Shown one piece after another: positions 7,982 to 62,940 of a DNA stretch of 64,000 nt. This DNA comes from Nitrospirota bacterium (GTDB lineage: Bacteria; Nitrospirota; UBA9217). The stretch covers positions 30,086-94,085 of the forward strand of contig JALNZF010000012.1 of assembly GCA_023229435.1 (NCBI GenBank). The letters are read 5' to 3'. Each line of letters begins with the position of its first letter. The first letter of the stretch is position 1. Both the position numbers and the translations under genes were made by a program. A model generated the notes under the pieces. The model saw nothing but the letters and a program-made list of their open reading frames with translations, did no database searches and was not told where the DNA came from.

Positions 7982-8056
7982 AACATGCCTCTTCTCTCCG
8001 AGGAGCGATCAGTCAAACAGTCAAGGATATGCGATTGAGTGCTGTCCTGACTGCTG

Positions 8057-37427: not shown

Positions 37428-37430
37428 ACC

Positions 37431-39683: not shown

Positions 39684-39733
39684 GGATGCCTGCGCGAAAA
39701 AACGGATCTCATAGGCGAACATTGGAGAAAAAA

Positions 39734-45026: not shown

Positions 45027-45203
45027 CGCATGGATCGATACCCCTGAACGATGAGGGGCACGTGCAAGGTGTGGTGTTTTTGAGCAGAGTGTGGTAATAT
45101 TCTCCCTTCCCATGAGGCGAAGGCAGGCATCGCTGAGGGCAAAGGCATTGTCCGGAACATAATGAATGACGGAATGACGCATTAATCAGGAGGTAAGGAA
45201 TAC

Positions 45204-46961
45204 ATGAAAGCAAGGTACGGAGTACTGGGTTTATTCTTATTGTTGGGTATGGTTGCGGGGAGCACGGCATCGGCCCTTGAGGGATCGAAGCCGGCGGTTG
45301 CCAGTCTCGGCACCGGCACGACCGCACCGGAGGGGCCCCAGGTCTTGGTGAGGGCGCCGCTTTTCTCGCCCCTCTTCGAACGGATACCCCTCGCCGCGGT
45401 CAACGGCGATCAGATCACCATGGGTGACGTCGCGAATGCGCTGGTCGCCTCCCATGAAGAACAGGACCCTGCGAAGAAGCAGGGCGGAGGAAAGCTAGAT
45501 TATGGGAAGGTCCTGGACCGGCTCATCAACGTGAGGCTCATCGTACAGGAATCGACCGCGATCGGATTTGACGAGCTGCCCGAATTCAAAGCCTCCGTGG
45601 AGGACTATTCGACGCAGGCCCTCGCAAGGCTCCTGATGCAGGATGCCACGAAGGACGTGAAAGCGGACCCTGCCGAGGTGGAGAAGCGCTATAAAGCCGC
45701 CATGGTAGAATGGAAGATAAAATCGATTTTTTTTGAGAACGAGGACGACGCCAAGAGCATGGCAGATGGGCTGAAGGCGGGAAAGAGCTACGAGGAAATG
45801 GCGGAAAAGGCCATTGCCGATGGAAAAACGAAAGGGGTCCAGGAGGGAAGTTTCGTGAAACCCAAGGATCTGGCCCCTCACATCATGGCGGCGGTTGCCG
45901 CGATGGAGACCGGATCTGTCAGTCCCATCATCAAAGCGCAGGGCGATAAAACCAGCGGATTCACGGTCCTCAAGCTCGTGGAGAAGCGATATCCCGAGAA
46001 CGCCGAGACAAGAGATCAGGTGGAGTGGTCGGTTCTGGCCGAGCAAAGGACCCGGGCGTGGGAGGAGTTCAAGACATCACTCGTAACGAAATACGTGAAG
46101 ATCAATAAAAGGACCCTCGACAAGCTGGACTACGACGGGTCCATCGATAAGTTCCCGCGGCTGCTGGAGGACGAGAGGGTGGTCGCCGAGTTCAAGGGGG
46201 GAAAGCCGATCACCGTCGGCGAGCTTACGCAGGCGCTTCAACAGAAATTCTGGCACGGAGTGGAGGAGGCCGCCAAGTCAAAAAAAATCAACAAGATGAA
46301 ACAGTACACCCTGTCCGAGCTCATCGGGCTGCGCGTAATAGCAAAAGAAACGTCGGAGCGGGACCTCGCTAGGAGAGAGGAATACCTGAAGGAGTTCAAG
46401 CAGTATAAGGACTCAACCCTCTTCGGGCTGTTCGTCGAACGGGTGGTCCTCCCCGACATTAAGGTGACGGAGCCTGACCTGCAGGCGTATTATGAGAAAC
46501 ATAGGCTGGAATTTCAGTACCCGGAGATGGTGAAGATGTCCAGCATCGCCTTCGGGAGCAAGCGCGCTGCCGAGGCCGTCCGCGCGAAGCTGGCAAAGGG
46601 CACGGACCTCGCCTGGGCGAGGAGCAACGCGGAGGGAGTCGCGGGCAAGAGCGAGGACGACCCCCTCTCCTCCCTGAACGGAAGCATCCTGTCCGTGAGA
46701 AGCCTGCCCCCCGGCATGGCCAAGGCCGTCTCAGGGAGCCACGCGGGAGAGTACCTGCTCTATGAAGGGTCCGAGGACCGGTTCTACGTTCTGTCCATCG
46801 AGGCGATCATACCCGCGAGGCAGCAGCCTTATGATGAGGTCAAGGAGGAGTTTCGGGAGAAGGTCTTTCAGGAAAAGTTCATCCAGGCGATGGATGACTG
46901 GTTTTCCAAGCTTAGATCGGCCAGCAAGGTAACGGTCTATCTTTCGGAAACAGGGAAATAA
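45204..46961 (+). CDS. periplasmic SurA/PpiD-like chaperone (parvulin-type PPIase-like)
   Basis: 585 aa. AGGAGG RBS. Signal peptide. N-terminal SurA-N-like segment (AAVNGDQITMGDVANALV). The C-terminal region has a degenerate PpiC/parvulin-like block (MVKMSSIAF..KRAAEAVRAKLAKGTDLAWARSNA). Sits immediately upstream of the two large multiheme cytochromes. Confidence 0.5.
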   Translation: MKARYGVLGLFLLLGMVAGSTASALEGSKPAVASLGTGTTAPEGPQVLVRAPLFSPLFERIPLAAVNGDQITMGDVANALVASHEEQDPAKKQGGGKLDYGKVLDRLINVRLIVQESTAIGFDELPEFKASVEDYSTQALARLLMQDATKDVKADPAEVEKRYKAAMVEWKIKSIFFENEDDAKSMADGLKAGKSYEEMAEKAIADGKTKGVQEGSFVKPKDLAPHIMAAVAAMETGSVSPIIKAQGDKTSGFTVLKLVEKRYPENAETRDQVEWSVLAEQRTRAWEEFKTSLVTKYVKINKRTLDKLDYDGSIDKFPRLLEDERVVAEFKGGKPITVGELTQALQQKFWHGVEEAAKSKKINKMKQYTLSELIGLRVIAKETSERDLARREEYLKEFKQYKDSTLFGLFVERVVLPDIKVTEPDLQAYYEKHRLEFQYPEMVKMSSIAFGSKRAAEAVRAKLAKGTDLAWARSNAEGVAGKSEDDPLSSLNGSILSVRSLPPGMAKAVSGSHAGEYLLYEGSEDRFYVLSIEAIIPARQQPYDEVKEEFREKVFQEKFIQAMDDWFSKLRSASKVTVYLSETGK

Positions 46962-46991
46962 CATCTTGAACACTATGATCAGGAGATAACG

Positions 46992-48956
46992 ATGCAAAAC
47001 GTTTCGATAAAACAGCGCGTCTTTGCCCTTGGAGCGGTCTTTTTTCTGTGCGTTTTCCTGCATGCCGCGATCGGGACGGCGGCGCAGCAATCCGCCCGCA
47101 AGGATTGTCTGGACTGCCACACCAAGTTCTCGGAAAAGTATCTCGGGATGAAAAATGTTCATGCTGTCGTGAAGGAGAAACATTGCGAGGGCTGCCATCT
47201 CCGCCACGGCCTCGTGGCCAGACTGATCCTCAAGCAGGTCGGGAACGAGCTCTGCCAGTCCTGTCACACGAAGGACAAGATGGGCATGAAGCCGATCGTG
47301 CATACGGCCCTGAAGGGGGGGAAATGCACGGACTGCCACAACCCGCACGCCTCCCCGATGGACCATCTGTTGAAGGTGGAGGGAAAGGATCTGTGCTATC
47401 AATGTCACAAAAAAGAGGACTATGAAAAGAAAACAGTGCACGCGGTCCTGAATACAAAGGGCTGCGCCGCCTGTCACTCTTCCCACAGCGCTGACGAGAA
47501 GAACCTCCTCGTCAAGCCGGAGACGCCCCTCTGCCTGTCCTGCCACGACAGCGGCAATTCCGCGTTCAGGAAGGCCCATGGTACGTATCCCGTGCAGACG
47601 AAAACCTGCACAACCTGCCATAATCCCCACTCCTCGGACCAGCCGAAGCTCCTGAAGACGAGCGCGCACAACCCCGTCGTCACCGCGAGCTGCGACATGT
47701 GCCATAACGCGCCGAATACCGACAAGGCCTTCGGCGTGAAGGAAGGCGCCATCGGCGCTCTCTGCGGCCAGTGTCATATGTCCGACGACCTGAAGGCAGG
47801 CGGCACGGTGGAGCACATGCCCTTTAAGGACGGGATGTGCGACCAATGTCATAATCCCCACGCCTCGGAGAACCCCAAGCTTCTGAATAAAAGCGTCAAC
47901 AAGCTCTGTTTCGACTGTCATGCGGACAAAGGGGCACGGGTTGCCTTCCCCCATGCGGCTGTCGAACAAGGGTGCCTGTCCTGTCATCTGCCCCATGCCG
48001 CAAAGAACGAGCGGTTGCTGAGGGCAAAGACGAGCGACATCTGCTTCACCTGTCACGAGAAAGTGAAGGAGGCGCAGAAAGCCAAGCACGTCCATTCGCC
48101 CTTCGCCGAGGCCATGTGCACCACATGCCATAATCCGCACGGTTCGAACTTCCCGCTCATGTCCAGCAACGGCATGGACAAGACCTGCTACTCGTGCCAC
48201 AACGACGCGGAGACGGGATTTGCGAAAAAAACCGTCCATGCGCCTGTGCGGGAAGGACGGTGCCAGTCGTGCCATGACGGCCACGGCTCATCAGAGGGGA
48301 AGATGCTCATAGCCCCTGCGGGGCCGAAACTCTGCGGACAGTGCCACGGCGACCTTATGAAAGAGTCAAAGGACAATATCGTCCATCAACCCTTCGGGAA
48401 AGGCCTTTGCCTGGATTGCCACTCCCCCCATGCCAGCGACAACGCGGGTATGATCGTCAAGGACCAGGGGTCCCTCTGTCTTACCTGCCACGCGGCAATG
48501 GGGAAGCAGATCAAGTCGTCCGCGGATGTGCATAAACCCATTGAGACCGGCATGTGTACGAAGTGTCACAGCCCCCACCAGGCGAAGCTTGCCAAACTGT
48601 TGTTGGCGCAGTCGCCTGATATCTGCCTCGCCTGCCACAAGGACCTGAAGGAGCGGATAGAGAAGGAGAACAAGCACCAGCCCGCAGCGGGCGACTGCCT
48701 GACCTGCCACCTGCCGCACCTGTCGTCGCAGCGGAGGCTGCTCTCCGACGCGGTGCCGTCGCTCTGCCTCCAATGCCACGAAGCAACGGCAGCTTCATTC
48801 AGGAAGGCCCACATCAATATTGACGCCGCCGTTATGGAGTGCACAAGCTGCCATGACCCCCATGCGTCAAAGGACCCGAAGTTATTCAAGAAACATGTGC
48901 ATGCCCCCTTTGCGGGCAGATCATGCGATGAATGTCACATCGTAAAAACACAATAG
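46992..48956 (+). CDS. multiheme c-type cytochrome, ~26 CXXCH motifs (doubled-CXXCH type)
   Basis: 654 aa. GGAGA RBS. Signal peptide. I count 26 CXXCH motifs, mostly in the periodic C..CH.PH(A/S)S pattern (CTDCHNPHAS, CTTCHNPHSS, CDQCHNPHAS, CLDCHSPHAS, CTSCHDPHAS). Confidence 0.85.
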   Translation: MQNVSIKQRVFALGAVFFLCVFLHAAIGTAAQQSARKDCLDCHTKFSEKYLGMKNVHAVVKEKHCEGCHLRHGLVARLILKQVGNELCQSCHTKDKMGMKPIVHTALKGGKCTDCHNPHASPMDHLLKVEGKDLCYQCHKKEDYEKKTVHAVLNTKGCAACHSSHSADEKNLLVKPETPLCLSCHDSGNSAFRKAHGTYPVQTKTCTTCHNPHSSDQPKLLKTSAHNPVVTASCDMCHNAPNTDKAFGVKEGAIGALCGQCHMSDDLKAGGTVEHMPFKDGMCDQCHNPHASENPKLLNKSVNKLCFDCHADKGARVAFPHAAVEQGCLSCHLPHAAKNERLLRAKTSDICFTCHEKVKEAQKAKHVHSPFAEAMCTTCHNPHGSNFPLMSSNGMDKTCYSCHNDAETGFAKKTVHAPVREGRCQSCHDGHGSSEGKMLIAPAGPKLCGQCHGDLMKESKDNIVHQPFGKGLCLDCHSPHASDNAGMIVKDQGSLCLTCHAAMGKQIKSSADVHKPIETGMCTKCHSPHQAKLAKLLLAQSPDICLACHKDLKERIEKENKHQPAAGDCLTCHLPHLSSQRRLLSDAVPSLCLQCHEATAASFRKAHINIDAAVMECTSCHDPHASKDPKLFKKHVHAPFAGRSCDECHIVKTQ

Positions 48957-48966
48957 AGGAGCACGT

Positions 48967-50298
48967 ATGAAACTTCGAACCAGTATCGTCATAGTGGCCC
49001 TGTCGGTAATATGCGCCGGTCCCGCGCCCCAGGCTTATGCGGCGAAGACGGCAAAACCGGTGAAGGCCGCGGAGGCAAAGAAAGCAGGCACTGAAACCAT
49101 CGAGAGCAAATTCAACCTGAAGCCGGGCGCCGCTCAAAAGGTCTGCCTGACGTGCCACCCCCAATTCGAGGACCTGCTGAAAAAGCCCTCGGTCCATACC
49201 CCCCTGAAGAGCCCGGGCTGTATCGCCTGTCACAGCCCCCACGCGTCAAATTTTCCGAAGCAGCTTTCGGCGGAAGTGGGCACGATCTGCCTGACGTGCC
49301 ATGCCGGCATCATGCCGAAGGGCGCGCGCAGCACCCACAAGGTCGCTCTTGAAGGCAAGTGCGTTTCGTGCCACGATCCGCACGCTTCGGACAACAAGAA
49401 CAACCTGCGCAAGGCGGGAAACGAACTGTGTTTCGATTGCCACAAGGACAAGGGCGAAGAGATCAAGCAGCTGAAGTTCAAACACTCTCCGGTGGAGAAA
49501 GGGTGCATAAACTGCCATAATCCGCACGCTGCAACGAAGGCGGCTTCCCTCCTGAAAAGCGAGGTCCCGGAACTGTGCAAAGAGTGCCATGATACAAAGA
49601 AGCCCCTCTTCGTCAAGCAGCACATGAATTATCCCGTGGCGAACACACGGTGCACCATATGCCACAGCGCGCACGGCTCGAACCGTGCCGGGCTCATCTA
49701 TGACACGGCCCACAAGCCCTTCGCGAGCAAGAGCTGCAACCTGTGCCATGAAGGCCCGACAGCTCCGAACCCGATCGCGTTGAAGAAAACGGGTTTTGAA
49801 TTATGCAGGGGGTGCCACAACAATTCGATCAACGACATGTTATCCAAGAACCGCCTCCATTGGCCGGTGCTGGGAAAGGACGGCTGTCTTAATTGTCATA
49901 ATCCGCACGCGTCGCCGCAGGCGGGCCTCCTGAGAAAGGCGCCGGTCCAGCTGTGCGGCGGCTGCCATGCGGACACGATCCGACGCCAGGAGCTGTCGGT
50001 GACGAAGCATAAGCCGATAAAGGACGGGCAGTGCATGTCGTGCCATGTCCCCCATGCCTCCGACAACACCTATTTGTTCATCCAGGCATCGCCGGTGGAT
50101 TTGTGCGGGACCTGCCACGACTATATGAAACATTCGACCCATCCGGTCGGTGAAAAGGTGATCGACAAGAGAAACAAGAACCTGACCGTGCAATGCCTGA
50201 GCTGTCATCGGGCGCACGGCACGGAATTCAAAAAAATGCTGCCCTTCGGGACCGTAGCTGAACTTTGCACGCAATGCCATACTGAATATAAGAGGTGA
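48967..50298 (+). CDS. multiheme c-type cytochrome, ~16 CXXCH motifs
   Basis: 443 aa. AGAGGAG RBS. Signal peptide (..AGPAPQAYA). 16 CXXCH motifs with the same C..CH.PHAS periodicity (CIACHSPHAS, CVSCHDPHAS, CINCHNPHAA, CLNCHNPHAS, CMSCHVPHAS). Confidence 0.85.
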   Translation: MKLRTSIVIVALSVICAGPAPQAYAAKTAKPVKAAEAKKAGTETIESKFNLKPGAAQKVCLTCHPQFEDLLKKPSVHTPLKSPGCIACHSPHASNFPKQLSAEVGTICLTCHAGIMPKGARSTHKVALEGKCVSCHDPHASDNKNNLRKAGNELCFDCHKDKGEEIKQLKFKHSPVEKGCINCHNPHAATKAASLLKSEVPELCKECHDTKKPLFVKQHMNYPVANTRCTICHSAHGSNRAGLIYDTAHKPFASKSCNLCHEGPTAPNPIALKKTGFELCRGCHNNSINDMLSKNRLHWPVLGKDGCLNCHNPHASPQAGLLRKAPVQLCGGCHADTIRRQELSVTKHKPIKDGQCMSCHVPHASDNTYLFIQASPVDLCGTCHDYMKHSTHPVGEKVIDKRNKNLTVQCLSCHRAHGTEFKKMLPFGTVAELCTQCHTEYKR

Positions 50299-50302
50299 AA
50301 CC

Positions 50303-51211
50303 ATGCGAGGAAACCCTGTGATGCGATACGCTGCATTGATGATTCTGCTCCTGCTGCCCATGCACGCCTTCGGGGAGGAACAGCAGATACGATTTAAACA
50401 TGACCGTTCACTCTATGCCGACGACAAGGGAGGCGGTTTGAACCAGCCGGAGGGCGTCGCCTGCAGCAAAAATCGACTGGTGGTCGCGGATAGCGGAAAC
50501 GGCAGGCTCGTCCTCTACTCGATCGTCGACGGCGAACCCCGGGGAGGAACGGAGATCCGTCTTCCCCAGGTGGTCTATCCCGCGCGCGTTGCGATGAACA
50601 CGAAAGGAGACCTGTATGTGCTCGACGCGCGGCAGCGAAAGATCGCGCGTCTCACCGCGGAAGGGGTCTTTCAGCACTACGTTGACCTGGCGAGCGGACC
50701 GACCGTGGCCATGGTTGTTCCCGCCGGCTTAAGCCTTGACGGCAATGACAATCTCTATGTGCTCGACATCGGCGGTGGAAGGATCATGGTCTTCGGGGAC
50801 GATGGAAAGTTTCAGCGGCAGATCTCCCTTCCGAAGGAGTATGGTTTCATCACCGACCTCGCCGTGGACGCGAAGGGGACGATTTTCCTGATCGACAGCG
50901 TCAGCGCCATTGTATATTCAAATGCCAAAGCCCCGGCGGTTTTCGCGCCGATCACCGCAACATTGAAAGACGACTTGAAATTCGCCTCGAACATTGTAGT
51001 AGATAACAAGGGACTCCTGTTCATCAGCGATCAAAACGGCGGCGGCGTCCTCGCGGTGAACCAGGACGGAACAAGCCGGAGGCTTTTCAGTTTGGGATGG
51101 AAGGAAGGAATGCTCCGGTATCCCTCGCAGCTCTGCATCAATCCGGACGGCGATCTGTATGTCGCGGACAGGGCAAACAGCCGGATCCAGCAGTTTACAC
51201 CGCTAAAATAG
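50303..51211 (+). CDS. NHL-repeat beta-propeller protein
   Basis: 302 aa. Signal peptide. Repeated NHL-type blades (P.GVA......VVADSGN.R.V.Y; DLYVLDARQRKIARL; NLYVLDIGGGRIMVF; LFISDQNGGGVLAVN; DLYVADRANSRIQQF). Confidence 0.65.
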   Translation: MRGNPVMRYAALMILLLLPMHAFGEEQQIRFKHDRSLYADDKGGGLNQPEGVACSKNRLVVADSGNGRLVLYSIVDGEPRGGTEIRLPQVVYPARVAMNTKGDLYVLDARQRKIARLTAEGVFQHYVDLASGPTVAMVVPAGLSLDGNDNLYVLDIGGGRIMVFGDDGKFQRQISLPKEYGFITDLAVDAKGTIFLIDSVSAIVYSNAKAPAVFAPITATLKDDLKFASNIVVDNKGLLFISDQNGGGVLAVNQDGTSRRLFSLGWKEGMLRYPSQLCINPDGDLYVADRANSRIQQFTPLK

Positions 51212-53680: not shown

Positions 53681-54631
53681 TTAATGACAGGCAAAACATA
53701 GAGTCTTGAACTTTGCATATACGGTGGCGGTTCCGTTAGCATGCTGTGCTGCTGCGGCTGAATTAATCTGGTAACCATGGCCACCCGAACTGAGAGCGAT
53801 CGGCACATAATTAGGATACGGTTTTGTCGGGTCGTTATGGCAAAGCTCGCAATCATTGGGACCAGGACCAGCTCCGAGATTCTGACTGTTGGCGTGGTTG
53901 CCACTATGCCAGGGGTAGTAATTATTATTATAGGAAGATGGATTACCGTGGCAAGCCGTGCAGCCCACACCTGTTGCATACCAAGATGGCGTATTCCCAA
54001 CGATATTTCCACCATAAGGCGCCGTCTTCAGTTCAGGTATCGGATATCCATCCGCGTCCATTTCATTGCCGGGCATGTAATAGCTGAACGTGCCGGCCTT
54101 AACACCATGGCAAGCAATGTTCGAGCAAGTCTTGGATGCCGCATCAAAGGACGGTGGTGTGCCGGTGCCGGTGGCCGGTCCGGCCGGATTGAAGCATAAG
54201 ATGCCGCCGACCATGTGACAAATCGAGCAAGCGAAACCGGCATGTTTGGGATGCGCGCCTGTTCCGTCGCTTGTCACGCAAGGCGCGCTCCTGACTTCGT
54301 CCTGGGTCATTGACCTGTTGTTGACGTTAGGCAGAGACGATGTTGTGTTCGCGCTCTGACTCGCATAATAATCGTCGACGGTATTGTCGTGAGGTACCCA
54401 TTGATTGCCATCATAGATGTATGTCCGGTTATCGGCCTTGCTGAAAAAACGCTGGCCAAATACGGCGTTGAGCGGGGTCCCTTCTATTTGCGGAGCTGTT
54501 GTATTATTCCCCGGCTGCCAATGCCCTTTGTCAGAGCTGGAACCACATCCCGGACCGAGCAGAATTGCCGCTGCAATCAATGACACAAGAGCAGCAACAA
54601 CTACAAAAATACTTACATTTAATTTTTTCAT
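53681..54631 (-). CDS. multiheme c-type cytochrome (4 CXXCH + 1 CX4CH motif)
   Basis: ORF open to 54664. ATG at 54631 has a perfect AAGGAG RBS at 6-nt spacing (minus strand). Signal peptide MKKLNVSIFVVVAALVSLIAAAILLG. Motifs CSICH, CTACH, CELCH, CFACH plus CSNIACH (CX4CH, as in some cytochromes c3). Confidence 0.7.
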   Translation of the reverse strand: MKKLNVSIFVVVAALVSLIAAAILLGPGCGSSSDKGHWQPGNNTTAPQIEGTPLNAVFGQRFFSKADNRTYIYDGNQWVPHDNTVDDYYASQSANTTSSLPNVNNRSMTQDEVRSAPCVTSDGTGAHPKHAGFACSICHMVGGILCFNPAGPATGTGTPPSFDAASKTCSNIACHGVKAGTFSYYMPGNEMDADGYPIPELKTAPYGGNIVGNTPSWYATGVGCTACHGNPSSYNNNYYPWHSGNHANSQNLGAGPGPNDCELCHNDPTKPYPNYVPIALSSGGHGYQINSAAAAQHANGTATVYAKFKTLCFACH

Positions 54632-55110
54632 GAGCTTCTCCTTAATTATGAAGATAGAATCCAACTGCTCCTACCTTATGGTTATCGTGAGATCGCCTTC
54701 GCGCTGTCCCTGGAGCCACGCGTGTAACTCCAGAAACGATATCCCTCTTTAAGCCTGCTCTGCGGTCAGCAGAGCGAATGATCACCGACGGTTTTATTGG
54801 GGATCGAAAACGAACTGCAGAGCGGACAAGCGCATCTTTGTCCAGACGCCCGATGAAAGTGACTTTGTCTGCTATCGCGAAAAGAGGAGGCCATACAAGC
54901 CATCCAGACAATCGCGAGCTGATCAGGCATGAGGACGCACGACGCCTACCCGATTGCGGCATGAGAATCAGATACAAAACATCATGGTTTTATAATGAAT
55001 GAACCGGCGTAAAAACATTAGCAATTTATTTATATCAGCAATTGGCCATTTTGTAAAGATAAAAAACGGTTATATTTGAACAGCTCAAAGCACATAAAAC
55101 GATGAACACA

Positions 55111-56253
55111 TCAGTCTCTGATATGACACTTATTGCAGAGACCTCTCTGGGAACCGGCAAACCGGGTGACCGGCCTGTCATAGTATGCCTTCTGTGTCTC
55201 AGCCTCGGTGCGCCCCTGTGCATTCCTTGCAGGCGAACCATTATTGTTCCCGGGGTAAACACTATTTTGCACGATAAACTCCGATGCCATATTCCATCGT
55301 GCCAGATGGTCCCAGGCGGAAGCGTGCGCCCGGTGACAGGTGAGACACATCACATTGGAACCAAAACCAGGCCCCATGGTGTAAGTGCCGTTGTTTTTTG
55401 CATGCTGCTCGAGGACCATCCGGTCGTCAGTCCCTTCCTCAAACGGAACCAGCGCGGTATAGGAAGCATCGCCCTTCCCATTGATGTCACCTGATTTCAC
55501 ATAGGCGTTGTAATTGGAAATGATCTCGTTCGTACACTGGGCGCCATTGCAGACAGGGTGTCCGTAAGCTCCGGTACAACCGTTCATGTGGCAATTTGAA
55601 CACCATTCAGACATCCCCCTGCCATAGGCGACCCTTGTGTCTGTTACCGCCTCAGACCTGTTGTAGTCACGTGGTGCAACAGCAACCGGCGCAGCAACAG
55701 TGAAAGGCATCCCCGGCGCTGACCTCGTTGTATAGCCGATCCCGCCCAGAAGACGATAGGCGCTGGTGGCAATGTTGCCGTGCGGATCATGGCAGCTGAT
55801 ACAGGAAAGCGCGCTGCTGGGATATGTTCCGCCCGGTGTTGTGCTATGCCTGCTGTCCGCTTGATACCCATAGTCTAGCGCAACAATATTATGGCCATGC
55901 CGTTCGCCCGGGCTGTCCTGTGTGGACCCCGATTCTTTCCAGGAATAGCTCTTTTTTAAATAGCCGAAGTCTCCGCCGGGAGTCATCTGTGAGGGCGGCA
56001 TACCCGCTCCTAAATCGTGCCCATTGGACGCACTGTAATGGCCAATGGGTCTCCGGGTGCCCATCGGCGCTTGATGGCATCGAAGACAGACGGAACCTGC
56101 ATCGGACCCGCGCAACGCGCCCTTCTCGTCCTCATGACATTCCCTGCACTCTCCGGCGCCTCCTGCATGAAAGGCTTCTCCTGTGCGGGGGATACAAAGT
56201 GCAAGGAAGAATGCCATGAGAAAAACAACATATGACCTGAAACCAGGCTCCAT
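55111..56253 (-). CDS. OmcS-like hexaheme c-type cytochrome, divergent subtype
   Basis: ORF open to 56295. The ATG at 56253 (MEPGFRSYVVFLMAFFLALCIPRTGEA|FHAGGAGECRECHEDEKG) has an AAGGAG RBS. Six CXXCH (CRECH, CLRCH, CISCH, CSNCH, CLTCH, CNKCH). Family blocks GGDFGYLKKSYSWK, GHNIVALDYGY, CISCHDPHGN, AYRLLGG, WCSNCH, CLTCHRAHASAWDHL, CNKCHIRD. Confidence 0.75.
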   Translation of the reverse strand: MEPGFRSYVVFLMAFFLALCIPRTGEAFHAGGAGECRECHEDEKGALRGSDAGSVCLRCHQAPMGTRRPIGHYSASNGHDLGAGMPPSQMTPGGDFGYLKKSYSWKESGSTQDSPGERHGHNIVALDYGYQADSRHSTTPGGTYPSSALSCISCHDPHGNIATSAYRLLGGIGYTTRSAPGMPFTVAAPVAVAPRDYNRSEAVTDTRVAYGRGMSEWCSNCHMNGCTGAYGHPVCNGAQCTNEIISNYNAYVKSGDINGKGDASYTALVPFEEGTDDRMVLEQHAKNNGTYTMGPGFGSNVMCLTCHRAHASAWDHLARWNMASEFIVQNSVYPGNNNGSPARNAQGRTEAETQKAYYDRPVTRFAGSQRGLCNKCHIRD

Positions 56254-56370
56254 GCTGCTCCTTAAAAAACCGCGACAGAACAATGTGATACACATTCACT
56301 GTTCAATCGTTCTTGTCCTGTTGACCCTGTTGCACCCAGGTAAGTATGGTAAAGCATCATCATTCGTCCA

Positions 56371-56452
56371 ATGATATCAAGTTACCCGATCCAAAGCAAG
56401 CCGCATTTTTTATTAATGATCCTTGCACTATTGGAAGACTTTTGTTAAAGTA
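56371..56452. promoter_or_regulatory. conserved divergent promoter block (copy 1), duplicated at 60216..60305
   Basis: Plus-strand sigma70-like promoter: -35 TTGCAC (56423-56428), exact 17-nt spacer, -10 TAAAGT (56446-56451). Minus-strand promoter: -35 TTGCTT (complement of 56394-56399), 17-nt spacer, -10 TATCAT (complement of 56371-56376). The whole block is conserved in the second copy. Confidence 0.35.
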
Positions 56453-56720
56453 TTTGTAACTACACAGGTTGTCAGGTTCAAGATTCAGTATTCAGGATGA
56501 ACAAGCAACACAGGAACGGCTCGACCATTCAACATGCTCATGGTGGCGAGCAACGTCGAACCACTGAACTCGGCGAAGTCTTTGTCTTTGAACCTATTAT
56601 CCATCACGTTGAGATGCGTTCAGCAAGGTCAATTATTCAAATCGTTTGATATTTGCGGCTTTCCAACCTTAGAACTGTTACCCTGGAACTTTGAACCTGA
56701 TCTGAACAAGGAGGAGCGCT

Positions 56721-57860
56721 ATGGGACTTACCACCCGGAGAAAGTACCGTTTATTTCTCTTTGTTAACTCGTTGGTGCTCGTATTGCCTGGCGCCGCGAT
56801 CAACGGAAGGGACGCGTTCCGGTCGTTTCCCGCGCACCTCGGCAAAGGCTATCACAACGTACGGGCCCTCGTGCAGGACGTCGGGATAGCGCTGTTCAGG
56901 AGGATTACGATGCTCGATGTCGTTTTTCCGCTCTTTATCGTTCTGGCAATCCTCTTCTCTGCCGACGCGGCGGATGCCTGGAACAGGGCTACAGGAGCAC
57001 AGTACGGCAGGGTCGTCATCAGGAACTACTCCAGGAATGCCGGACTTGCCCCTGTGGTATTCGACCACTGGTTCCACCGGTCCAGATTCACCTGCAGGCT
57101 TTGTCATGTCGATATCGGTTTTGCCATGGAGGCGGGTGGTACGGAAATTACAGCAGCAATGAACAAGCAGGGGCTCTACTGCGGCGCCTGCCATGACGGC
57201 AAAAGGACCTTTGACGGTAAAAAGATCTTCGCGGCGTGTTCTGAGGGCGTTTCAAAGGAAGAGTCTTTGCGATGCGACCGGTGTCATTCGCGAGGCAAGA
57301 AAGTTGCGAGGGAATATGATTTTACCGCCTTTAGAGAAAAAATGCCGAAGACCGTCCTTGGAAACGGGATCAACTGGGAGGAGGCCGAAGCAAAAGGACT
57401 CATTAAGCCCGTTGATTTCCTCGAAGGAGTGTCGGTGCAGCGACCATCCTTGAAGACGCAAAAGGACTTTTCGATAGAAGTGAAATCCTCATGGATGGAC
57501 AAGGTGCTCTTTTCGCATAAGAAGCACGCTGTCTGGAACGGATGCGAGGTCTGCCACCCGGAGATCTTTCCCAGCGTGAAGAAGGGCGCAACGAAGTATT
57601 CCATGTTTGAGATAGTCAGCGGTCAATACTGCGGCGTATGTCATGACAAGGTCGCATTTCCCTTACAGGATTGTCAACGCTGCCACACACAACAGGTCGA
57701 GATGGGGGGCGGCGCTCCCCGATTGAGAAGGGATGAACGGAAAACCACCGCTTCCCCCGGGACTTTTTTTAAGATGGTATCTGAAAGAGAGATGGATTGT
57801 GACAGCGCGTATAAACAGTTTGTTTTTTTGGTAACCCTTCCTGATGTTCCAACTCGCTAG
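56721..57860 (+). CDS. membrane-anchored hexaheme c-type cytochrome (c3/c7-like heme-binding motifs)
   Basis: AAGGAGG RBS. N-terminal ~85 aa has two hydrophobic helices (RLFLFVNSLVLVLPGAAI; MLDVVFPLFIVLAILFSA). Then VVFDHWFHRSRFTCRLCH, a c3/c7-type F.H..H......C..CH motif, and five more CXXCH (CGACH, CDRCH, CEVCH, CGVCH, CQRCH). Confidence 0.75.
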   Translation: MGLTTRRKYRLFLFVNSLVLVLPGAAINGRDAFRSFPAHLGKGYHNVRALVQDVGIALFRRITMLDVVFPLFIVLAILFSADAADAWNRATGAQYGRVVIRNYSRNAGLAPVVFDHWFHRSRFTCRLCHVDIGFAMEAGGTEITAAMNKQGLYCGACHDGKRTFDGKKIFAACSEGVSKEESLRCDRCHSRGKKVAREYDFTAFREKMPKTVLGNGINWEEAEAKGLIKPVDFLEGVSVQRPSLKTQKDFSIEVKSSWMDKVLFSHKKHAVWNGCEVCHPEIFPSVKKGATKYSMFEIVSGQYCGVCHDKVAFPLQDCQRCHTQQVEMGGGAPRLRRDERKTTASPGTFFKMVSEREMDCDSAYKQFVFLVTLPDVPTR

Positions 57861-57929
57861 GTCCAGACGATAATCCCCGCGGCAAAGCGATGGGGCCATC
57901 GGTCACGATTTTGTTACCGGAGATATCCG

Positions 57930-58718
57930 ATGCATAAAACAATAATATCGACAATTTTGTACGTAACGCTCGTCGTCGCAGTTGTTGCGGCTGACGACAA
58001 GCAATGCAAGTCTTCGGGTGATGTTGAACAGTACTGGAAGTCTCATCAGCAGGATAAGGCATTCGAGTGCCTTAATAACCTGATACTGGCGGACCCGGCG
58101 GACCCTAAGCTGCATTTGCTTAAGGGCAGCTATTGCCTGAGTCAGGGCAACCTGTCCTGCGCAAAAGAACAATTCAATATCAAGTCAGTAAGGAGCAAAT
58201 TTGCTGTTGAAATAGCTGATCTGTACAAAAAGGAGGCCGACTATTTATACCACGAAGCCGCTTCCCTTAATCCGGCCATTCGCGTCGAGATCGTCAAAAG
58301 AGCATTCCAGGACAATAAACAGGCCCTTGGCCTGTTCCACCTGGATGAGGCCAGGAAATGGGCAAAAAGGCCGGGTTTTGAAGTAGCGGCCGATGAACAT
58401 AAGCAATTCGCCCGGAAATATCTCGGTGACGACGAGGTGGAAAGGGAATTGCCGGAAGTTATCATCCTGGCACCTCGGAAAAGGGCTTATGAGTTTAAGT
58501 TGGCAAAAGGCGAACAGACGAGCTCGTGGATAGCATGGGATGATAAGATAACCAGCCATATCCATTTTTACGAAGTCGATAATGATAAATTCGAAATACA
58601 CTATAAAAACGGAGATTTAGTAAGAGTATGGGCGGGAGAGAAGGTCCCCAAAAAACCGTACGATCAGTTCAAGATAGTTGCTATTGACGATACGATGGTA
58701 TTGATCGTGGTTGATTAA
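57930..58718 (+). CDS. hypothetical secreted protein
   Basis: 262 aa. GGAGA RBS. N-terminal hydrophobic signal (ISTILYVTLVVAVVAA). No recognisable catalytic motifs. Possible helical-repeat N-terminus. Confidence 0.5.
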   Translation: MHKTIISTILYVTLVVAVVAADDKQCKSSGDVEQYWKSHQQDKAFECLNNLILADPADPKLHLLKGSYCLSQGNLSCAKEQFNIKSVRSKFAVEIADLYKKEADYLYHEAASLNPAIRVEIVKRAFQDNKQALGLFHLDEARKWAKRPGFEVAADEHKQFARKYLGDDEVERELPEVIILAPRKRAYEFKLAKGEQTSSWIAWDDKITSHIHFYEVDNDKFEIHYKNGDLVRVWAGEKVPKKPYDQFKIVAIDDTMVLIVVD

Positions 58719-58954
58719 AGACCGTAAATGACAGAGGAAGCTGATGCTGTTCCCCTCGTCAACAGCACCGTTCACCGTTCCCGGAAAGATAACGTCGAAA
58801 ATCCATGATGAAAAACAGCAGGTGGACACGTTGAAGGAACGGCTAGATGAGAGATCTGGTTCTCGGGGGATTCGGCGCGTGAGAAGTTGCAGAAGTAGGG
58901 GTTGAAGCAGGCAGGCCCGTCAACAATATCCGCTCATGGTTCCGGGAGGGCACC

Positions 58955-60097
58955 TCAGTCTCGCAGGTGACACTTGTTGCAAAGACCCCGCTGGAAGCCG
59001 GAAAACAGGCTGGCCGGTCTGTCATAGTAGGCCTGCCGTGTCTCGGCCTCGGTGCGCCCCTGAGCATTTCTCTGAGGCGAATCATTATTGATTCCGGGGT
59101 AAACACCCTTAAAGACAATGAACTCCGATGCCATATTCCAGCGTGCCATATGGTCCCAGGCAGAGGCATGCGCTCTATGACAGGTGAGACACATCACATT
59201 GGACCCATGAACGGGACCCATGATAGAAGTGCCGTCGTTTTTTGCATGCTGTTCGAGGATCGATATGTCGTCTGTCCCTTCTTCGAAGGGAACGAGCGAA
59301 GTATAGGAAGCATCTCTTTTCCCGTTGATGTCGCCTGACTTCACATAGGCGTTGTAATTGGAAATGATCTCATTCGAGCACCGCGCACCACTGCAAACAG
59401 GATGTCCATACGCTCCTGTACAACCCTTCGTGTGGCAGTTCGAGCACCATTCAGACATCCCCCTGCCATATGCCACTCTCGTGTCTGAAACGGACTCGGA
59501 CCGGTTGTAGTCGTGGGGTGCAACAACAACTGGCGCATCAATAGTGAAGACCACCTCGGGCACCGAACGTGTTTTATAACCGGCCCCGCCCAGCATGCGA
59601 TATACGTTGTTCGCAATTTTACCGTGCGGATCATGACAGCTGATACAGGAAAGTTTGCTGTTGGGATACACTTCACCCGGCGTGCTCAACGATCTGCTGT
59701 CTGCGACATACCCATAGTCGTCCGCGGTAATGTTATGGCCGTGCCGTTCGCCAGGGCTGCTCTCTGTCGCTCCTAACGCTTTCCAGGAGTAGGCCTTCTT
59801 TAAATAGGCGAAATCTCCACCGGGAGTCAGTTGTGAGGGCGGAAAACCCGCCATCAGATCAGTTTCATCGGTCGCGATATAATGGCCACTGGGTCCCCGG
59901 GTGCCCCGCGGCGCTTGATGACAACGAAGGCAGGTGGAGCTTGCGTCGGACCCTCGTAACGCGCCCTTATTATCTTCATGACATTCCCTGCACTCCGCAG
60001 CGCCTCCGGAATGAAAGGCTTCCGCCGCGCGGCCCTGACAAAGAGCAAGGAAGAATACCATGAGGAAAGCACCATATGGCCTGAAGCCATGCTCCAT
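58955..60097 (-). CDS. OmcS-like hexaheme c-type cytochrome, divergent subtype (duplicate)
   Basis: ORF open to 60217. The ATG at 60097 (MEHGFRPYGAFLMVFFLALCQGRAAEA|FHSGGAAECRECHEDNKG) is preceded by TAAGGAGCAGT, the same RBS context as 55111..56253. Six CXXCH. Blocks GGDFAYLKKAYSWK, GHNITADDYGY, CISCHDPHGK, VYRMLGG, WCSNCH, CLTCHRAHASAWDHM, CNKCHLRD. Confidence 0.75.
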   Translation of the reverse strand: MEHGFRPYGAFLMVFFLALCQGRAAEAFHSGGAAECRECHEDNKGALRGSDASSTCLRCHQAPRGTRGPSGHYIATDETDLMAGFPPSQLTPGGDFAYLKKAYSWKALGATESSPGERHGHNITADDYGYVADSRSLSTPGEVYPNSKLSCISCHDPHGKIANNVYRMLGGAGYKTRSVPEVVFTIDAPVVVAPHDYNRSESVSDTRVAYGRGMSEWCSNCHTKGCTGAYGHPVCSGARCSNEIISNYNAYVKSGDINGKRDASYTSLVPFEEGTDDISILEQHAKNDGTSIMGPVHGSNVMCLTCHRAHASAWDHMARWNMASEFIVFKGVYPGINNDSPQRNAQGRTEAETRQAYYDRPASLFSGFQRGLCNKCHLRD

Positions 60098-60215
60098 ACT
60101 GCTCCTTAACCGTTGCAAGAGAACGATGTCATGCTCATTCTCCGTTCGTTCATCCTGGTTCCATTGACCATGATGAACACAGGTGAGTGCCGTAATCATC
60201 ATGATCAGTACTCTC

Positions 60216-60305
60216 ATGATAACAAGTTACCCGATCCAAAGCAAGCCGCATTTTTTTCTTTTCTCTTGAATGACTCTTGCACAATTGGAAGACTTTTGTT
60301 AAAGT
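60216..60305. promoter_or_regulatory. conserved divergent promoter block (copy 2)
   Basis: Same elements as copy 1: plus-strand -35 TTGCAC (60277-60282), 17-nt spacer, -10 TAAAGT (60300-60305). Minus-strand -35 TTGCTT (complement of 60239-60244) and -10 TATCAT (complement of 60216-60221). Confidence 0.35.
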
Positions 60306-60350
60306 ACTCCTTGATAAGAACCGGAGCGATTCTAAAAAAGGAGGAGTGCC

Positions 60351-60923
60351 ATGGGACTTACCACCCGGAGAAATTATCGCTTGTTTCTGTATGTCAACTC
60401 GTTGGCGATCATTCTGCTCGGCGCTGTGATCACCGGATGGGGCGTGTTCTTGTCGTTCCCTGCGGATCTCGGTCAAGGCTATCACAACGTACAGGCCCTG
60501 GTGCGGGAGATCGGGAACGTACTGTTCTGGAGGGTCACGATACTCTATGCCGTCACCTCTTTCCTCATCGTTCTGGCGATGGTGGCGCTTCATCTGGTAT
60601 ACTCCCACCGCATTGCAGGTCCGGCTTACCGTATCAGTCTGGAAGCAGCCCGGATCTCCCAGGGCGATCTGACCGGCAATATCAAGTTTCGCCGGAAGGA
60701 CAACCTTACGGACATGGCGGACCTGCTGAATGATCTGGCGTCGCAATACCGGGGCCGCATCAATGCTGTCAGGGACTCCCTTGCGATTCTTGACGAACAG
60801 TCAAAAAAAGTTTCCGATCTCATCCAACAGGGCAAGGACGGGCTTGCGCTCAAACAAATTGCAGGCGACCTTTCAAAGAGCGTAAAAAAGATCGAGAGCA
60901 GCCTCGCGGAGATGAGAATATAA
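60351..60923 (+). CDS. small membrane protein: 2-TM module + HAMP domain + coiled coil (no output domain)
   Basis: AAGGAGGAG RBS. The N-terminal 85 aa (MGLTTRRNYRLFLYVNSLAIILLGAVI...GQGYHNVQALVREIG...) is paralogous to the N-terminus of cytochrome 56721..57860. Then a HAMP-like block (IAGPAYRISLEAARISQGDLTGNIKFRRKDNLTDMADLLNDLASQY) and ~60 aa of coiled coil. Confidence 0.65.
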   Translation: MGLTTRRNYRLFLYVNSLAIILLGAVITGWGVFLSFPADLGQGYHNVQALVREIGNVLFWRVTILYAVTSFLIVLAMVALHLVYSHRIAGPAYRISLEAARISQGDLTGNIKFRRKDNLTDMADLLNDLASQYRGRINAVRDSLAILDEQSKKVSDLIQQGKDGLALKQIAGDLSKSVKKIESSLAEMRI

Positions 60924-60933
60924 GGAGCCAGTC

Positions 60934-61515
60934 ATGCTGTTTGATAACAGAAGAATATACTTTATTAATAAAGATTTTCAGTCGCGTTTCATTCTGAGGT
61001 TTGTTGCCGTTGCAACCATATGGGCCGCGGCCACGATCATGCTGTTTGCCTACCTGGCGGGGAAAAGGCTGGAGGCAATACGCTATTCATCGCACATCGA
61101 CATTAAAACGATGAGCGAACTGCTGCTGCCGGTTACCATCGGCGTTCACGCAATCTCGTTTCTGGTGTTCGCCGGCATCCTGGCCTTTACCATCAATTTG
61201 CTCTGGAAAAGGCTTTCCCCGCCGCTGTATTCCATAAAAAAAGACATCGTGAGGATTGCCGGCGGTGATCTTGCGAGCGAGGTCAGTCTCAGCAAGGACG
61301 AAGAGTTTCAACGCCTGGCCACGGACCTGGATAATATGCGGAGAGGAATGCGGGAAAAGATCGTCCGGCTCAAGGAACAGCAGGCAATGCTGTCTTCCGC
61401 GGCCGACGAGCTCGTCAGATCAACCCTTGGCGGGAATCCGTCCTTGTCTTCCGCGGCGACGCTCCAGGCCGCCGTTGAACGCATGAAGCGGGATGTCCAG
61501 ATTTTCCACTATTGA
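60934..61515 (+). CDS. small membrane protein: 2-TM + HAMP + coiled coil
   Basis: AAGGAG RBS. Two TM helices. HAMP-like block (PPLYSIKKDIVRIAGGDLASEVSLSKDEEFQRLATDLDNMRRGM). Then a helical tail. Confidence 0.65.
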   Translation: MLFDNRRIYFINKDFQSRFILRFVAVATIWAAATIMLFAYLAGKRLEAIRYSSHIDIKTMSELLLPVTIGVHAISFLVFAGILAFTINLLWKRLSPPLYSIKKDIVRIAGGDLASEVSLSKDEEFQRLATDLDNMRRGMREKIVRLKEQQAMLSSAADELVRSTLGGNPSLSSAATLQAAVERMKRDVQIFHY

Positions 61516-62499: not shown

Positions 62500-62940
62500 G
62501 AATGAAGAACAGCCAATTGTAAATGCTTTCACATCGTGATAGCATATCTATCACATTATGAATCAAAGTTATAAACCAAGTTGTGTATTCCGGAGCGGAA
62601 GTGAAACAACTCGGGCAAAATATCTATGCCGTGCCTTCGTATCATATGTGAGTTTGGTTGAGAGGTGTATAGTGTCCTTCCTGAAATGTGATATTTGAGG
62701 AAGATATTAAGAGCTACAGATTTCATCTTGTAATTAATGACGACAAGCTAATAGATATAATAAAACACTGGGGGGTAGAGTAAGCAGGTAAGTGGCGCAC
62801 TAAAAATATCAACGTCTCCTGCGCTCTTGATGTCATGACCCTACGATCACCCGTCCCCATCTCTTTTCTGGACATTTTCATTTACTTGTAGTAAAGTCTT
62901 CAAGAAAATTCGATAGTTGTCGATCGTAGATTTATTTTTA

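What the first reader, a model, noticed from the sequence alone, without database searches (positions are those of the whole stretch)
55111..60097. Second, divergent OmcS-like subtype lacking the inter-subunit His16, present as a duplicated module
The genes at 55111..56253 and 58955..60097 (both minus strand, 381 aa) carry the OmcS-family blocks and six CXXCH. Their mature N-terminus is FH(A/S)GG(A)ECRECHED(E/N)KGALRGSDA.S.CLRCHQAP. The His at position 16 is replaced by an acidic ED(E/N)K stretch, and heme-2 spacing differs. They may form non-polymerising or differently bonded assemblies, or hetero-polymerise with the His16-containing paralogs.
Basis: partly seen in the sequence, partly recalled or inferred. 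Interest (0 to 1): 0.7.

Follow-up and report, generated by a model that had tools for sequence, protein, structure and literature searches.

The report
OmcS-like cytochromes lacking the subunit-linking histidine
Two intact neighbouring genes encode six-heme cytochromes of the OmcS "nanowire" family that keep every internal heme ligand but have lost the one histidine, and the arm carrying it, that OmcS uses to clip each subunit to the next; they belong to a widespread branch I found no description of, so they probably do not build OmcS-type wires on their own.

Summary
Genes 55111-56253 and 58955-60097 (minus strand, 380 aa) are full-length OmcS homologues (6EF8: E=1.7e-87; model TM 0.83). Each has six CXXCH motifs and a Phe-His mature N-terminus.

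In 254 family sequences, the 11 histidines that ligate hemes within an OmcS subunit are invariant. Only His16, the ligand donated to the neighbour's heme 5, is missing here. It is removed by an 18-residue deletion between heme motifs 1 and 2. No compensating histidine was found.

This is not a local oddity. His16 is present in about 90% of family clusters (77/85), but the two genes sit in a coherent His16-less lineage found in Nitrospirota, Syntrophales and Geobacterales MAGs. In 10 of 10 loci that lineage is paired divergently with two small HAMP membrane proteins, and it often lies next to the osc nanowire-assembly cluster, as it does here.

The duplication is old (dS 0.73) and both copies are under purifying selection (dN/dS 0.2). 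It also copied the promoter region and the 5' end of the HAMP gene, which now heads a c7-type cytochrome gene.

The most likely function is a non-crosslinked (monomeric or terminal) electron-transfer unit with an unfilled or differently ligated heme 5. Whether it polymerises cannot be settled in silico.

The parts
55111..56253 (-). W55: His16-less OmcS-family hexaheme cytochrome, 380 aa (27-aa signal peptide plus 353-aa mature protein)
   Evidence: ORF. 6EF8 E=1.7e-87. Six CXXCH. AF2 pLDDT 86 and Foldseek TM 0.83 to 6ef8_A.
58955..60097 (-). W58: paralogue of W55, 380 aa, 77% aa identity, no gaps
   Evidence: dN/dS 0.205, dS 0.73.
56089..56133 (-). W55 shortened arm between heme-1 and heme-2 motifs (EDEKGALRGSDAGSV). 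It replaces the 33-aa OmcS loop that carries His16.
   Evidence: Translation; alignment.
59933..59977 (-). W58 shortened arm (EDNKGALRGSDASST)
56355..56452 (.). Conserved non-coding block upstream of W55, probably back-to-back promoters for W55 and the divergent gene
   Evidence: 85-88% identical to 60200-60306, higher than the coding region. Also conserved in the Nitrospirota loci L002 and L004. The -35/-10-like hexamers were read by eye and were not listed by the consensus scan.
60200..60306 (.). The same conserved non-coding block upstream of W58
56721..56950 (+). Duplicated 5' part of the HAMP gene (TM1-loop-TM2), now the N-terminus of the c7-type cytochrome ORF
   Evidence: 77% nt identity to 60331-60580. 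Protein comparison, and the same fusion in L003.
56721..57860 (+). c7-type cytochrome (two TIGR04257 triheme domains) driven by the duplicated promoter and HAMP 5' end
57930..58718 (+). 262-aa protein of unknown function between the two copies. It is also present next to the c7 gene in L003.
60351..60923 (+). HAMP partner 1: 190 aa, two TM segments plus HAMP plus coiled coil, no output domain; divergent from W58
   Evidence: Pfam HAMP match, weak. NCBIfam matches only the TM2-HAMP part of kinases and MCPs. Present in all 10 loci of this clade and in 0 of 69 other loci.
60934..61515 (+). HAMP partner 2: 193 aa, same architecture
53681..54664 (-). CxxxxCH/CxxCH-type cytochrome (TIGR01904) just downstream of W55 on the same strand
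   Evidence: Homologues lie next to other His16-less genes in L009, L011, L024, L039 and L052.
32564..33868 (+). W32: His16-bearing OmcS-like paralogue
   Evidence: 6EF8 E=2e-128, aligned from residue 1, CEGCHSMHNS.
34389..35684 (+). W34: His16-bearing paralogue in the OscC position, directly upstream of the assembly block
36027..51211 (+). osc-type (omcS companion) assembly/secretion block. It holds a YVTN propeller, a 750-aa protein in the position of the outer-membrane component (no family match), a small protein, an MBG/Ig giant protein, a SurA-like protein, two large multiheme cytochromes and an NHL protein.
   Evidence: ORFs. Domains. Synteny with Geobacter and Nitrospirota loci. Gene names taken from PMC13194489 and PMC12977616.

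Best explanation
W55 and W58 are two functional paralogues of a distinct, old lineage of the OmcS family (a 'short-arm' clade). They keep the OmcS fold, the complete six-heme chain and all eleven histidines that ligate hemes within a subunit. They have lost the N-terminal arm, including His16, the single ligand an OmcS subunit donates to heme 5 of its neighbour.

They therefore cannot form the OmcS-type, metal-crosslinked head-to-tail homopolymer. Heme 5 (CLTCH, His280 of the mature protein) is left without its sixth histidine. It must be five-coordinate, or ligated by a non-His residue, or completed by a partner protein. The only enriched candidate is Met295 in the near-invariant RWNM motif.

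I think they most likely work as secreted, non-crosslinked (monomeric or terminal) electron-transfer units that belong to the osc nanowire system encoded next door. They are expressed from a bidirectional promoter shared with a pair of HAMP-only membrane proteins.

Shown: homology, fold, ligand inventory, clade coherence, synteny, and purifying selection on both copies. Inferred: secretion, the state of heme 5, absence of polymerisation, and any role of the HAMP pair.
For: Family membership and fold.

Ligand inventory: Filman et al. report 12 His ligands in OmcS, 11 from the same subunit and 1 (on heme 505) from the neighbour. In 254 sequences His2, 13, 51, 110, 144, 147, 243, 257, 332, 335 and 404 are 100% conserved in both groups. 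His16 is 100% conserved in 131 sequences and absent in 123. The OmcS N-terminus CEGCHTMHNS was verified against 6EF8.

The whole arm signature of His16-bearing proteins is lost together with His16: V6, M15, H16, N17, S18 and L37, each at 57-100%.

The loss is phylogenetically coherent, and His16 is the family norm, present in 77 of 85 classifiable 50%-identity cluster representatives.

Within the same clade a sub-branch has added a seventh CXXCH directly N-terminal to Phe1-His2. That is the end which carries the His16 arm in OmcS. The extension is hard to reconcile with OmcS-type head-to-tail packing.

A separate conserved partner set and a conserved promoter block point to a distinct role rather than redundancy with W32 and W34.

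Both copies are intact, with dN/dS 0.2 over dS 0.73. Relatives at 75-85% identity occur in other MAGs and metagenomes.

The clade is linked to the osc block in the window and in L004, L009, L010 and L012.
Against: Nothing here shows the proteins are monomeric. OmcZ polymerises without any inter-subunit heme ligation, so loss of His16 does not exclude a filament.

A six-heme chain with hemes exposed at both ends, encoded beside a nanowire assembly cluster, is what one would expect of a wire subunit.

In the AF2 model the only low-confidence stretches of the mature protein are residues 1-18 (the arm and heme-1 motif) and a short segment at precursor residues 163-166. The weak arm could mean it needs a partner.

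A Nature 2025 study predicted filament formation by AF2 for an 'OmcS-like sister clade' protein (DA_402) of Desulfurivibrio. The Desulfurivibrionaceae homologues I could read lack His16.

Met295 is not a clean substitute. It is present in 68% of His16-less proteins but also in 15% of His16-bearing ones.

No hemes were modelled and I had no access to coordinates.
Confidence: 0.5

Rival explanations
1. They still form homopolymeric filaments, exported by the osc machinery. The filaments would be held together without a His crosslink (as in OmcZ), or with another ligand to heme 5 from the next subunit or the same subunit, such as Met295 or His92.
For: The complete heme chain and fold are retained. 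The genes are genomically linked to the osc cluster. OmcZ is a precedent for polymerisation without cross-ligation. An AF2-based filament prediction has been published for a probable His16-less relative, DA_402. The N-terminal arm is poorly defined in the monomer model.
Against: The conserved arm motif, which makes up much of the OmcS donor side, is deleted. One sub-branch places an extra heme at that end. No conserved ligand-type residue lies in the 15-aa loop.
Confidence: 0.22
2. They are terminal or adaptor subunits of hetero-filaments. Their heme 5 accepts His16 from a His16-bearing paralogue (W32 or W34), but they cannot donate one. That would cap one end of the wire, for example as its base, its tip or a length-control element.
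For: His16-bearing and His16-less paralogues co-occur around one osc block in the window, in the contig holding L004 and L041, and in the contig holding L011 and L036. The heme-5 CxxCH-R-A-H core is invariant, and the surrounding M-C-L-T-C-H-R-A-H-A-S motif is invariant or nearly so. Other His16-less types sit directly after the last osc gene in Geobacter-type loci.
Against: The genes have their own promoter and their own partner genes, and sit on the strand opposite the osc block. The acceptor surface could not be examined without coordinates. There is no experimental precedent for mixed OmcS filaments. According to PMC12977616, only OmcS itself is known to form a wire.
Confidence: 0.13
3. 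Heme 5 is an open, ligand-binding or redox-sensing site, and the cytochrome reports to the adjacent HAMP-only membrane proteins as a sensor module rather than a conduit.
For: The pairing with two HAMP proteins is strict, 10 of 10 loci. One heme has lost its sixth ligand while all the others are preserved.
Against: The HAMP proteins have no recognisable output domain and only short loops of about 20-30 residues between their two TM segments. Six-heme chains are not typical sensors. The idea is purely inferential.
Confidence: 0.08
4. They are decaying or silent duplicates with no function of their own.
For: Public gene calls on the identical contig truncate both genes to 296 and 299 aa.
Against: Both full-length frames are open, with an SD motif and a signal peptide. 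dN/dS is 0.2. The upstream block is conserved. Full-length relatives of 380 aa occur in several MAGs. The truncation is a gene-calling artefact, because the DNA is 100% identical to the window.
Confidence: 0.02

Closest known systems
OmcS of Geobacter sulfurreducens (GSU2504; PDB 6EF8/6NEF)
   Same: The fold is the same (TM 0.83, 43% identity). It shares six CXXCH motifs in the same order, the same 11 intrasubunit His ligands, the Phe-His mature N-terminus after a Sec signal peptide, and a location next to an osc-type assembly cluster.
   Different: There is no His16 and no CHTMHNS...YLL arm, because of an 18-aa deletion. A loop of roughly 30 residues after heme 3 is deleted. The loop after heme 4 is shortened and carries three extra Cys. 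The mature protein is 353 aa against 407. The gene has its own divergent HAMP-pair partners.
OmcS paralogues OmcT (GSU2503), OmcJ (GSU0701) and OscC (GSU2501), as discussed in PMC12977616
   Same: They are hexaheme OmcS-family proteins of unknown function encoded with or near omcS. The open question is the same: which of them form wires.
   Different: I could not obtain these sequences, so their His16 status was not tested here. Genes in the OscC position in the loci I read all carry His16 (W34, L041, L068, L079). That study only collected hexahemes within 10% of OmcS length, which would exclude 380-aa proteins.
'OmcS-like sister clade' of Desulfurivibrionaceae (DA_402 of Desulfurivibrio alkaliphilus; PMC12545173)
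   Same: It is a divergent OmcS relative, predicted extracellular. The Desulfurivibrionaceae MAG homologues I read (L028, L044) also lack His16, with a 14-aa CHTTPP loop, and fall in the same His16-less superclade. DA_402 is more than 100-fold induced on Fe(III) oxide, so relatives of this kind can be highly expressed.
   Different: It is a different subclade. It keeps the long loop after heme 3, has a different extra Cys pair, and is not linked to the HAMP pair in the loci read. Identity of DA_402 itself with this type was not verified. The paper's main text and figure legends do not mention the missing inter-subunit histidine (only one occurrence of 'histidine', about a seventh motif).
OmcZ of G. 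sulfurreducens
   Same: It shows that a multiheme cytochrome can polymerise with all heme ligands coming from the same subunit.
   Different: The sequence, fold and heme arrangement are unrelated. [quoted passage not shown]

Membership tests
OmcS protein family (sequence and fold) | Significant full-length sequence similarity to OmcS | tested here: met
   phmmer against 6EF8 gives E=1.7e-87, in two stretches covering residues 46-380.
OmcS protein family (sequence and fold) | Six CXXCH heme motifs in the conserved order | tested here: met
OmcS protein family (sequence and fold) | Eleven intrasubunit axial His (OmcS 2, 13, 51, 110, 144, 147, 243, 257, 332, 335, 404) | tested here: met
   All are present in W55 and W58 and 100% conserved in 254 sequences. 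The figure of 11 ligands from the same subunit comes from PMC6584659. Which residues they are is inferred from invariance.
OmcS protein family (sequence and fold) | OmcS fold | tested here: met
   AF2 pLDDT 86.4 and pTM 0.83. Foldseek against 6ef8_A gives E=1.3e-33 and TMq 0.83, with no other PDB match.
OmcS-type nanowire subunit (His-crosslinked head-to-tail polymer) | Donor histidine (His16, in CxxCHxxH after heme 1) that ligates heme 5 of the next subunit | tested here: not met
   Position 16 is Glu or Asn, and there is no His in the 15-aa loop. That the donated ligand is His16 rests on my knowledge of Wang et al. 2019. It is consistent with His16 being the only further invariant His in 131 OmcS-type sequences.
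OmcS-type nanowire subunit (His-crosslinked head-to-tail polymer) | Conserved N-terminal arm (V6, M15, N17, S18, ...YLL at 36-38) | tested here: not met
   All are absent or deleted.
OmcS-type nanowire subunit (His-crosslinked head-to-tail polymer) | Acceptor heme 5 with only one ligand from its own subunit | tested here: inconclusive
   CLTCH is present, and no own-subunit His candidate is specific to the clade. Whether Met295 or His92 reaches the iron cannot be judged without coordinates.
OmcS-type nanowire subunit (His-crosslinked head-to-tail polymer) | Forms extracellular filaments | not testable with these tools
   This needs microscopy or proteomics.
osc (omcS companion) gene cluster | Encoded with the OscD-OscK-type assembly/secretion genes | tested here: inconclusive
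   A block with matching architecture lies at 36027-51211, 3.9 kb from W55. It is syntenic with Geobacter-type loci. W55 and W58 are on the opposite strand with their own promoter.

The most novel reading that the evidence does not exclude
The His16-less paralogues are dedicated end-subunits of OmcS-type wires. They can accept His16 from a wire subunit on their heme 5 but cannot pass one on, so they would define one end of the filament (base anchor, tip or length control). That would make mixed-subunit cytochrome nanowires a general design, encoded beside the osc machinery in several phyla.
Probability: 0.12. Interest if true: 0.85.

Novelty: new variant of a known kind. Interest (0 to 1): 0.52.

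Why it matters
A recognised problem in the field is deciding which of the many OmcS homologues in genomes and metagenomes are real nanowire subunits (PMC12977616). Surveys routinely count any OmcS-like hit as evidence of nanowires (for example).

This analysis gives a simple, checkable criterion. All 11 internal ligands are invariant across the family, and the only variable ligand is the inter-subunit His16, together with its arm motif. About a tenth of family clusters lack it, including one lineage with its own conserved partner genes.

If these proteins do not polymerise, nanowire inventories are over-counted. If they do polymerise, or if they cap wires, they reveal a second assembly chemistry. 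Either way the clade is a defined target for expression, spectroscopy and cryo-EM.

Tried and rejected
- AF2 with a 22-sequence alignment gave pLDDT 36 and was discarded. A 106-sequence alignment fixed this.
- His309 as a compensating ligand: rejected, because it is not anticorrelated with His16 (64/54 vs 21/27).
- His108: it is 100% conserved in the His16-less group but also 73% in the other group, so it is not specific.
- The three extra Cys after heme 4 as a general substitute ligand: rejected, because they occur only in some subclades, and some members have two (a likely disulfide) or none.
- Lys17 or acidic residues of the loop as ligands: not conserved.
- A lipoprotein signal at the Cys in the signal peptide: that Cys is not conserved in homologues.
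- Rfam search of 53-62 kb: nothing found.
- The sigma-70 and terminator consensus scan did not exceed shuffles and did not list the conserved upstream block.
- Literature searches for 'OmcS' plus 'His16', and for 'omcS-companion', found nothing relevant.
- The primary papers of Wang et al. 2019 and Shen et al. 2025 are not held.
- An exact-product look-up for W55 failed because public gene calls are truncated.
- I initially thought His16-less forms were the majority. That was a sampling bias of hits ranked by similarity to the query, corrected by the representative search (vs 56).

Full report
**What is there.** The window is 100% identical to an ENA metagenome contig (ERZ27247322, k141_498184). 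Two minus-strand ORFs, 55111-56253 (W55) and 58955-60097 (W58), each encode 380 aa. Each has an AAGGAG Shine-Dalgarno motif 5-6 nt upstream, a 27-aa signal peptide ending EA|FH, and six CXXCH motifs. W55 matches the OmcS chain of 6EF8/6NEF at E=1.7e-87. An AlphaFold2 model built on 106 homologues is confident (pLDDT 86.4, pTM 0.83). Its only PDB match is OmcS (Foldseek E=1.3e-33, TM 0.83, 43% identity). The window holds two further OmcS-like genes on the plus strand, 32564-33868 (W32; 6EF8 E=2e-128) and 34389-35684 (W34).

**The missing ligand.** Filman et al. (PMC6584659) report that all 12 axial ligands of OmcS are histidines, 11 from the same subunit and one, on heme 505, from the neighbouring subunit. 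That the donated residue is His16 comes from my knowledge of Wang et al. 2019, which I could not open. The OmcS N-terminus FHSGGVAECEGCHTMHNS was verified against the PDB chain.

I aligned 254 full-length family members drawn from three searches: 131 with His at position 16 and 123 without. His2, 13, 51, 110, 144, 147, 243, 257, 332, 335 and 404 (OmcS numbering) are 100% conserved in both groups. His16 is the only other histidine invariant in the first group, and it is absent from the second. W55 and W58 have E-D-E/N-K at positions 14-17 and no His anywhere in the 15-residue link between heme motifs 1 and 2. OmcS has 33 residues there, W32 has 34 and W34 has 28.

The loss is not a point substitution. 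The whole arm signature of His16-bearing proteins disappears with it (V6, M15, N17, S18, L37; each in 57-86% of them).

I looked for a replacement ligand and found none that is specific:
- His108 is 100% vs 73%.
- His309 is 52% vs 24% and is not anticorrelated with His16.
- Met at OmcS position 347 (Met295 of mature W55, in a near-invariant RWNM motif) is 68% vs 15%. It is the only enriched ligand-type residue, but it also occurs in some His16-bearing proteins.

The sixth ligand of heme 5 is therefore unidentified.

**Other differences from OmcS.** A surface loop of roughly 30 residues after the heme-3 DPHG motif is deleted. The loop between heme 4 and its following distal His is shortened and carries three extra Cys (NGC, HPVC, AQC). 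Relatives with only the first two Cys suggest a disulfide around the distal His. The third Cys is unpaired and unexplained.

**How common is this.** Hits ranked by similarity to W55 are dominated by His16-less proteins, but that is a sampling bias. In a search of 1.84 billion 50%-identity representatives the family has 170 clusters at E<1e-30. Of 85 classifiable full-length representatives, 77 carry CxxCHxxH and 8 have no His in the loop. His16 is thus the family norm.

A neighbour-joining tree places the His16-less proteins in one coherent superclade with three parts:
- (a) Long-loop forms, often found directly after the last osc gene in Geobacter-type loci.
- (b) A 14-residue CHTTPP-loop form in Geomonas, Desulfurivibrionaceae and others.
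- (c) The 15-residue-loop clade that contains W55 and W58. This clade also includes a sub-branch with a 39-residue insertion and a sub-branch that has gained a seventh CXXCH immediately N-terminal to Phe1-His2.

The nearest genomic relatives of W55 and W58 are in Nitrospirota MAGs (83%, 76% and 70% identity), followed by Syntrophales and Geobacterales MAGs. Neighbouring genes are 78-89% identical to those of the Nitrospirota MAGs. The window therefore probably comes from a Nitrospirota bacterium. This is an inference.

**Genomic context.** All 10 genomic loci that carry a clade-(c) gene also carry, divergently, the two small proteins encoded here at 60351-60923 and 60934-61515. None of the 69 other loci does. 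Both proteins have two TM segments, a HAMP domain and a coiled coil, with no output domain.

In the window, and in L004, L009, L010 and L012, the module lies next to the distal end of a block that matches the osc (omcS companion) cluster. That cluster has been described as needed for OmcS nanowire folding, secretion and morphology (PMC13194489 and PMC12977616, both citing Shen et al. 2025). Here the block is at 36027-51211, preceded by the His16-bearing W32 and W34.

**The duplication.** The segment 55107-56452 matches 58951-60306 at 78.7% nt identity, and 56701-56950 matches 60331-60580 at 77%. The unit is therefore the gene, the intergenic region and the first roughly 230 nt of the HAMP gene.

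Within the intergenic region a block of about 100 nt is more conserved than the coding sequence (85-88%). It is shared with the Nitrospirota loci L002 and L004. By eye it contains back-to-back -35/-10-like hexamers, but the consensus scan did not list them, so this is only suggestive.

In copy 1 the duplicated HAMP 5' part (TM1-loop-TM2) is fused in frame to a c7-type cytochrome with two TIGR04257 domains. The former TM2, followed by ADAADA|W, looks like its signal peptide. The same fusion is present in L003.

The two cytochrome copies differ at 23% of residues without gaps. dS is 0.73 and dN/dS is 0.205, so both have been under purifying selection since an old duplication. W55 is closer to L002/P0001 (85%) than to W58 (77%), and W58 is closest to P0005 (80%), so each copy is closer to proteins from other sources than to its sister copy.

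**Interpretation.** Without His16 and its arm, these proteins cannot make the OmcS-type metal-crosslinked homopolymer. I favour (confidence 0.5) a non-crosslinked role: a secreted hexaheme unit that acts as a monomer or at the end of another structure, with heme 5 open or ligated differently.

Three points support a distinct, non-OmcS mode of action. The arm was lost coherently across the lineage. A sister sub-branch has an added heme at that end. The clade has its own partner genes.

Several points cut the other way. OmcZ polymerises with no inter-subunit ligation (PMC9473688). The genes sit beside a wire-assembly cluster. The N-terminal 18 residues are the main poorly defined part of the monomer model. 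A Nature 2025 paper predicted filaments for an 'OmcS-like sister clade' protein of Desulfurivibrio that is more than 100-fold induced on iron oxide (PMC12545173). The Desulfurivibrionaceae homologues I could read lack His16, although I could not verify DA_402 itself.

The rivals are:
- a homopolymer with different bonding (0.22);
- a cap or adaptor subunit that accepts His16 from W32/W34 but cannot donate one (0.13);
- a sensing haem coupled to the HAMP pair (0.08);
- decaying duplicates (0.02), which the selection and conservation data contradict.

**Novelty.** The family and the role of the inter-subunit histidine are known. I found no paper that describes His16-less OmcS relatives as such. 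The most relevant comparative study collected only hexahemes within 10% of OmcS length, which would exclude these 380-aa proteins. Public gene calls on this very contig cut both genes to 296 and 299 aa, removing hemes 1 and 2. I rate it a new variant of a known kind, of moderate interest. It offers a concrete sequence criterion for a recognised annotation problem and a defined experimental target, but its function remains inferred.

Noticed in passing
window 55111-56253 and 58955-60097; L001 4416-5551 and 8505-9395: Public gene calls on the identical contig split both genes. Each is called from an internal Met (296 and 299 aa), and for W58 a 78-aa product in another frame covers the true N-terminus. 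Many database relatives of about 300 aa with only four CXXCH (P0012, P0017, P0022, P0024, P0061-P0075) may be the same artefact. It hides hemes 1-2 and the His16 region from sequence surveys.
   Followed up: partly
window 56721-57860; L003 6626-7708: The c7-type cytochrome ORF begins with a diverged copy of the HAMP gene's first ~77 codons (TM1, loop, TM2). The former TM2 plus an AxA site looks like its signal peptide. The same fusion is conserved in a Nitrospirota MAG. This appears to be capture of a promoter and export signal by duplication.
   Followed up: partly
window 56453-56700: About 250 bp are present only in copy 1 of the duplicated intergenic region, between the HAMP-derived start and the conserved promoter block. 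Its origin was not examined.
   Followed up: no
W55 and W58 mature residues ~199-214 (after CSNCH): There are three extra cysteines (NGC, HPVC, AQC) flanking the distal His of the GHP motif. Relatives have three, two or none. The 7-heme sub-branch has SGC...GKCANC instead. One Cys is unpaired, and its role is unknown (free thiol, inter-chain disulfide or metal or heme contact).
   Followed up: partly
P0036, P0039, P0042, P0044, P0048-P0052, P0054, P0058, P0059, P0064, P0069; L009, L011: A sub-branch of the same clade has a seventh CXXCH 13-30 residues N-terminal to the usual Phe-His start. It still carries the HAMP pair next door.
   Followed up: partly
L030, L031, L036-L039 (Geobacter-type MAGs), position 8001-9370: A different His16-less, long-loop OmcS-like gene sits immediately after the last osc gene (the NHL protein). 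Its loop has a recurrent Met in M-[LF]-x-G-x-D, at the position of Met36 in OmcS.
   Followed up: no
window 53681-54664; L024, L039, L052: A CxxxxCH/CxxCH cytochrome (TIGR01904) lies downstream of W55. Two to three hits to this protein lie beside His16-less OmcS-like genes in the Geomonas and Pelobacter loci.
   Followed up: no
window 59-30557 and 51445-53268: There is an array of about a dozen paralogous proteins with a polytopic membrane N-terminal half and C-terminal TPR repeats. With them are two ~1005-aa membrane proteins with a spermidine-synthase domain (4964-7981, 8057-11071) and a YfhO-like protein. All lie directly upstream of the cytochrome cluster. From memory the membrane-TPR proteins resemble TMTC/PMT-type protein glycosyltransferases, but Pfam matched only the TPR part.
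   Followed up: partly
L004 8001-8110: The orthologue in Nitrospirota MAG MFD05442 has a one-base frameshift in the heme-1 region. This is either a pseudogene or an assembly error.
   Followed up: no
window 62917-63576 and beyond; L001 198-1520: A BglII-like restriction endonuclease and an MT-A70 methyltransferase lie at the right end of the window, where GC drops to 0.47.
   Followed up: no
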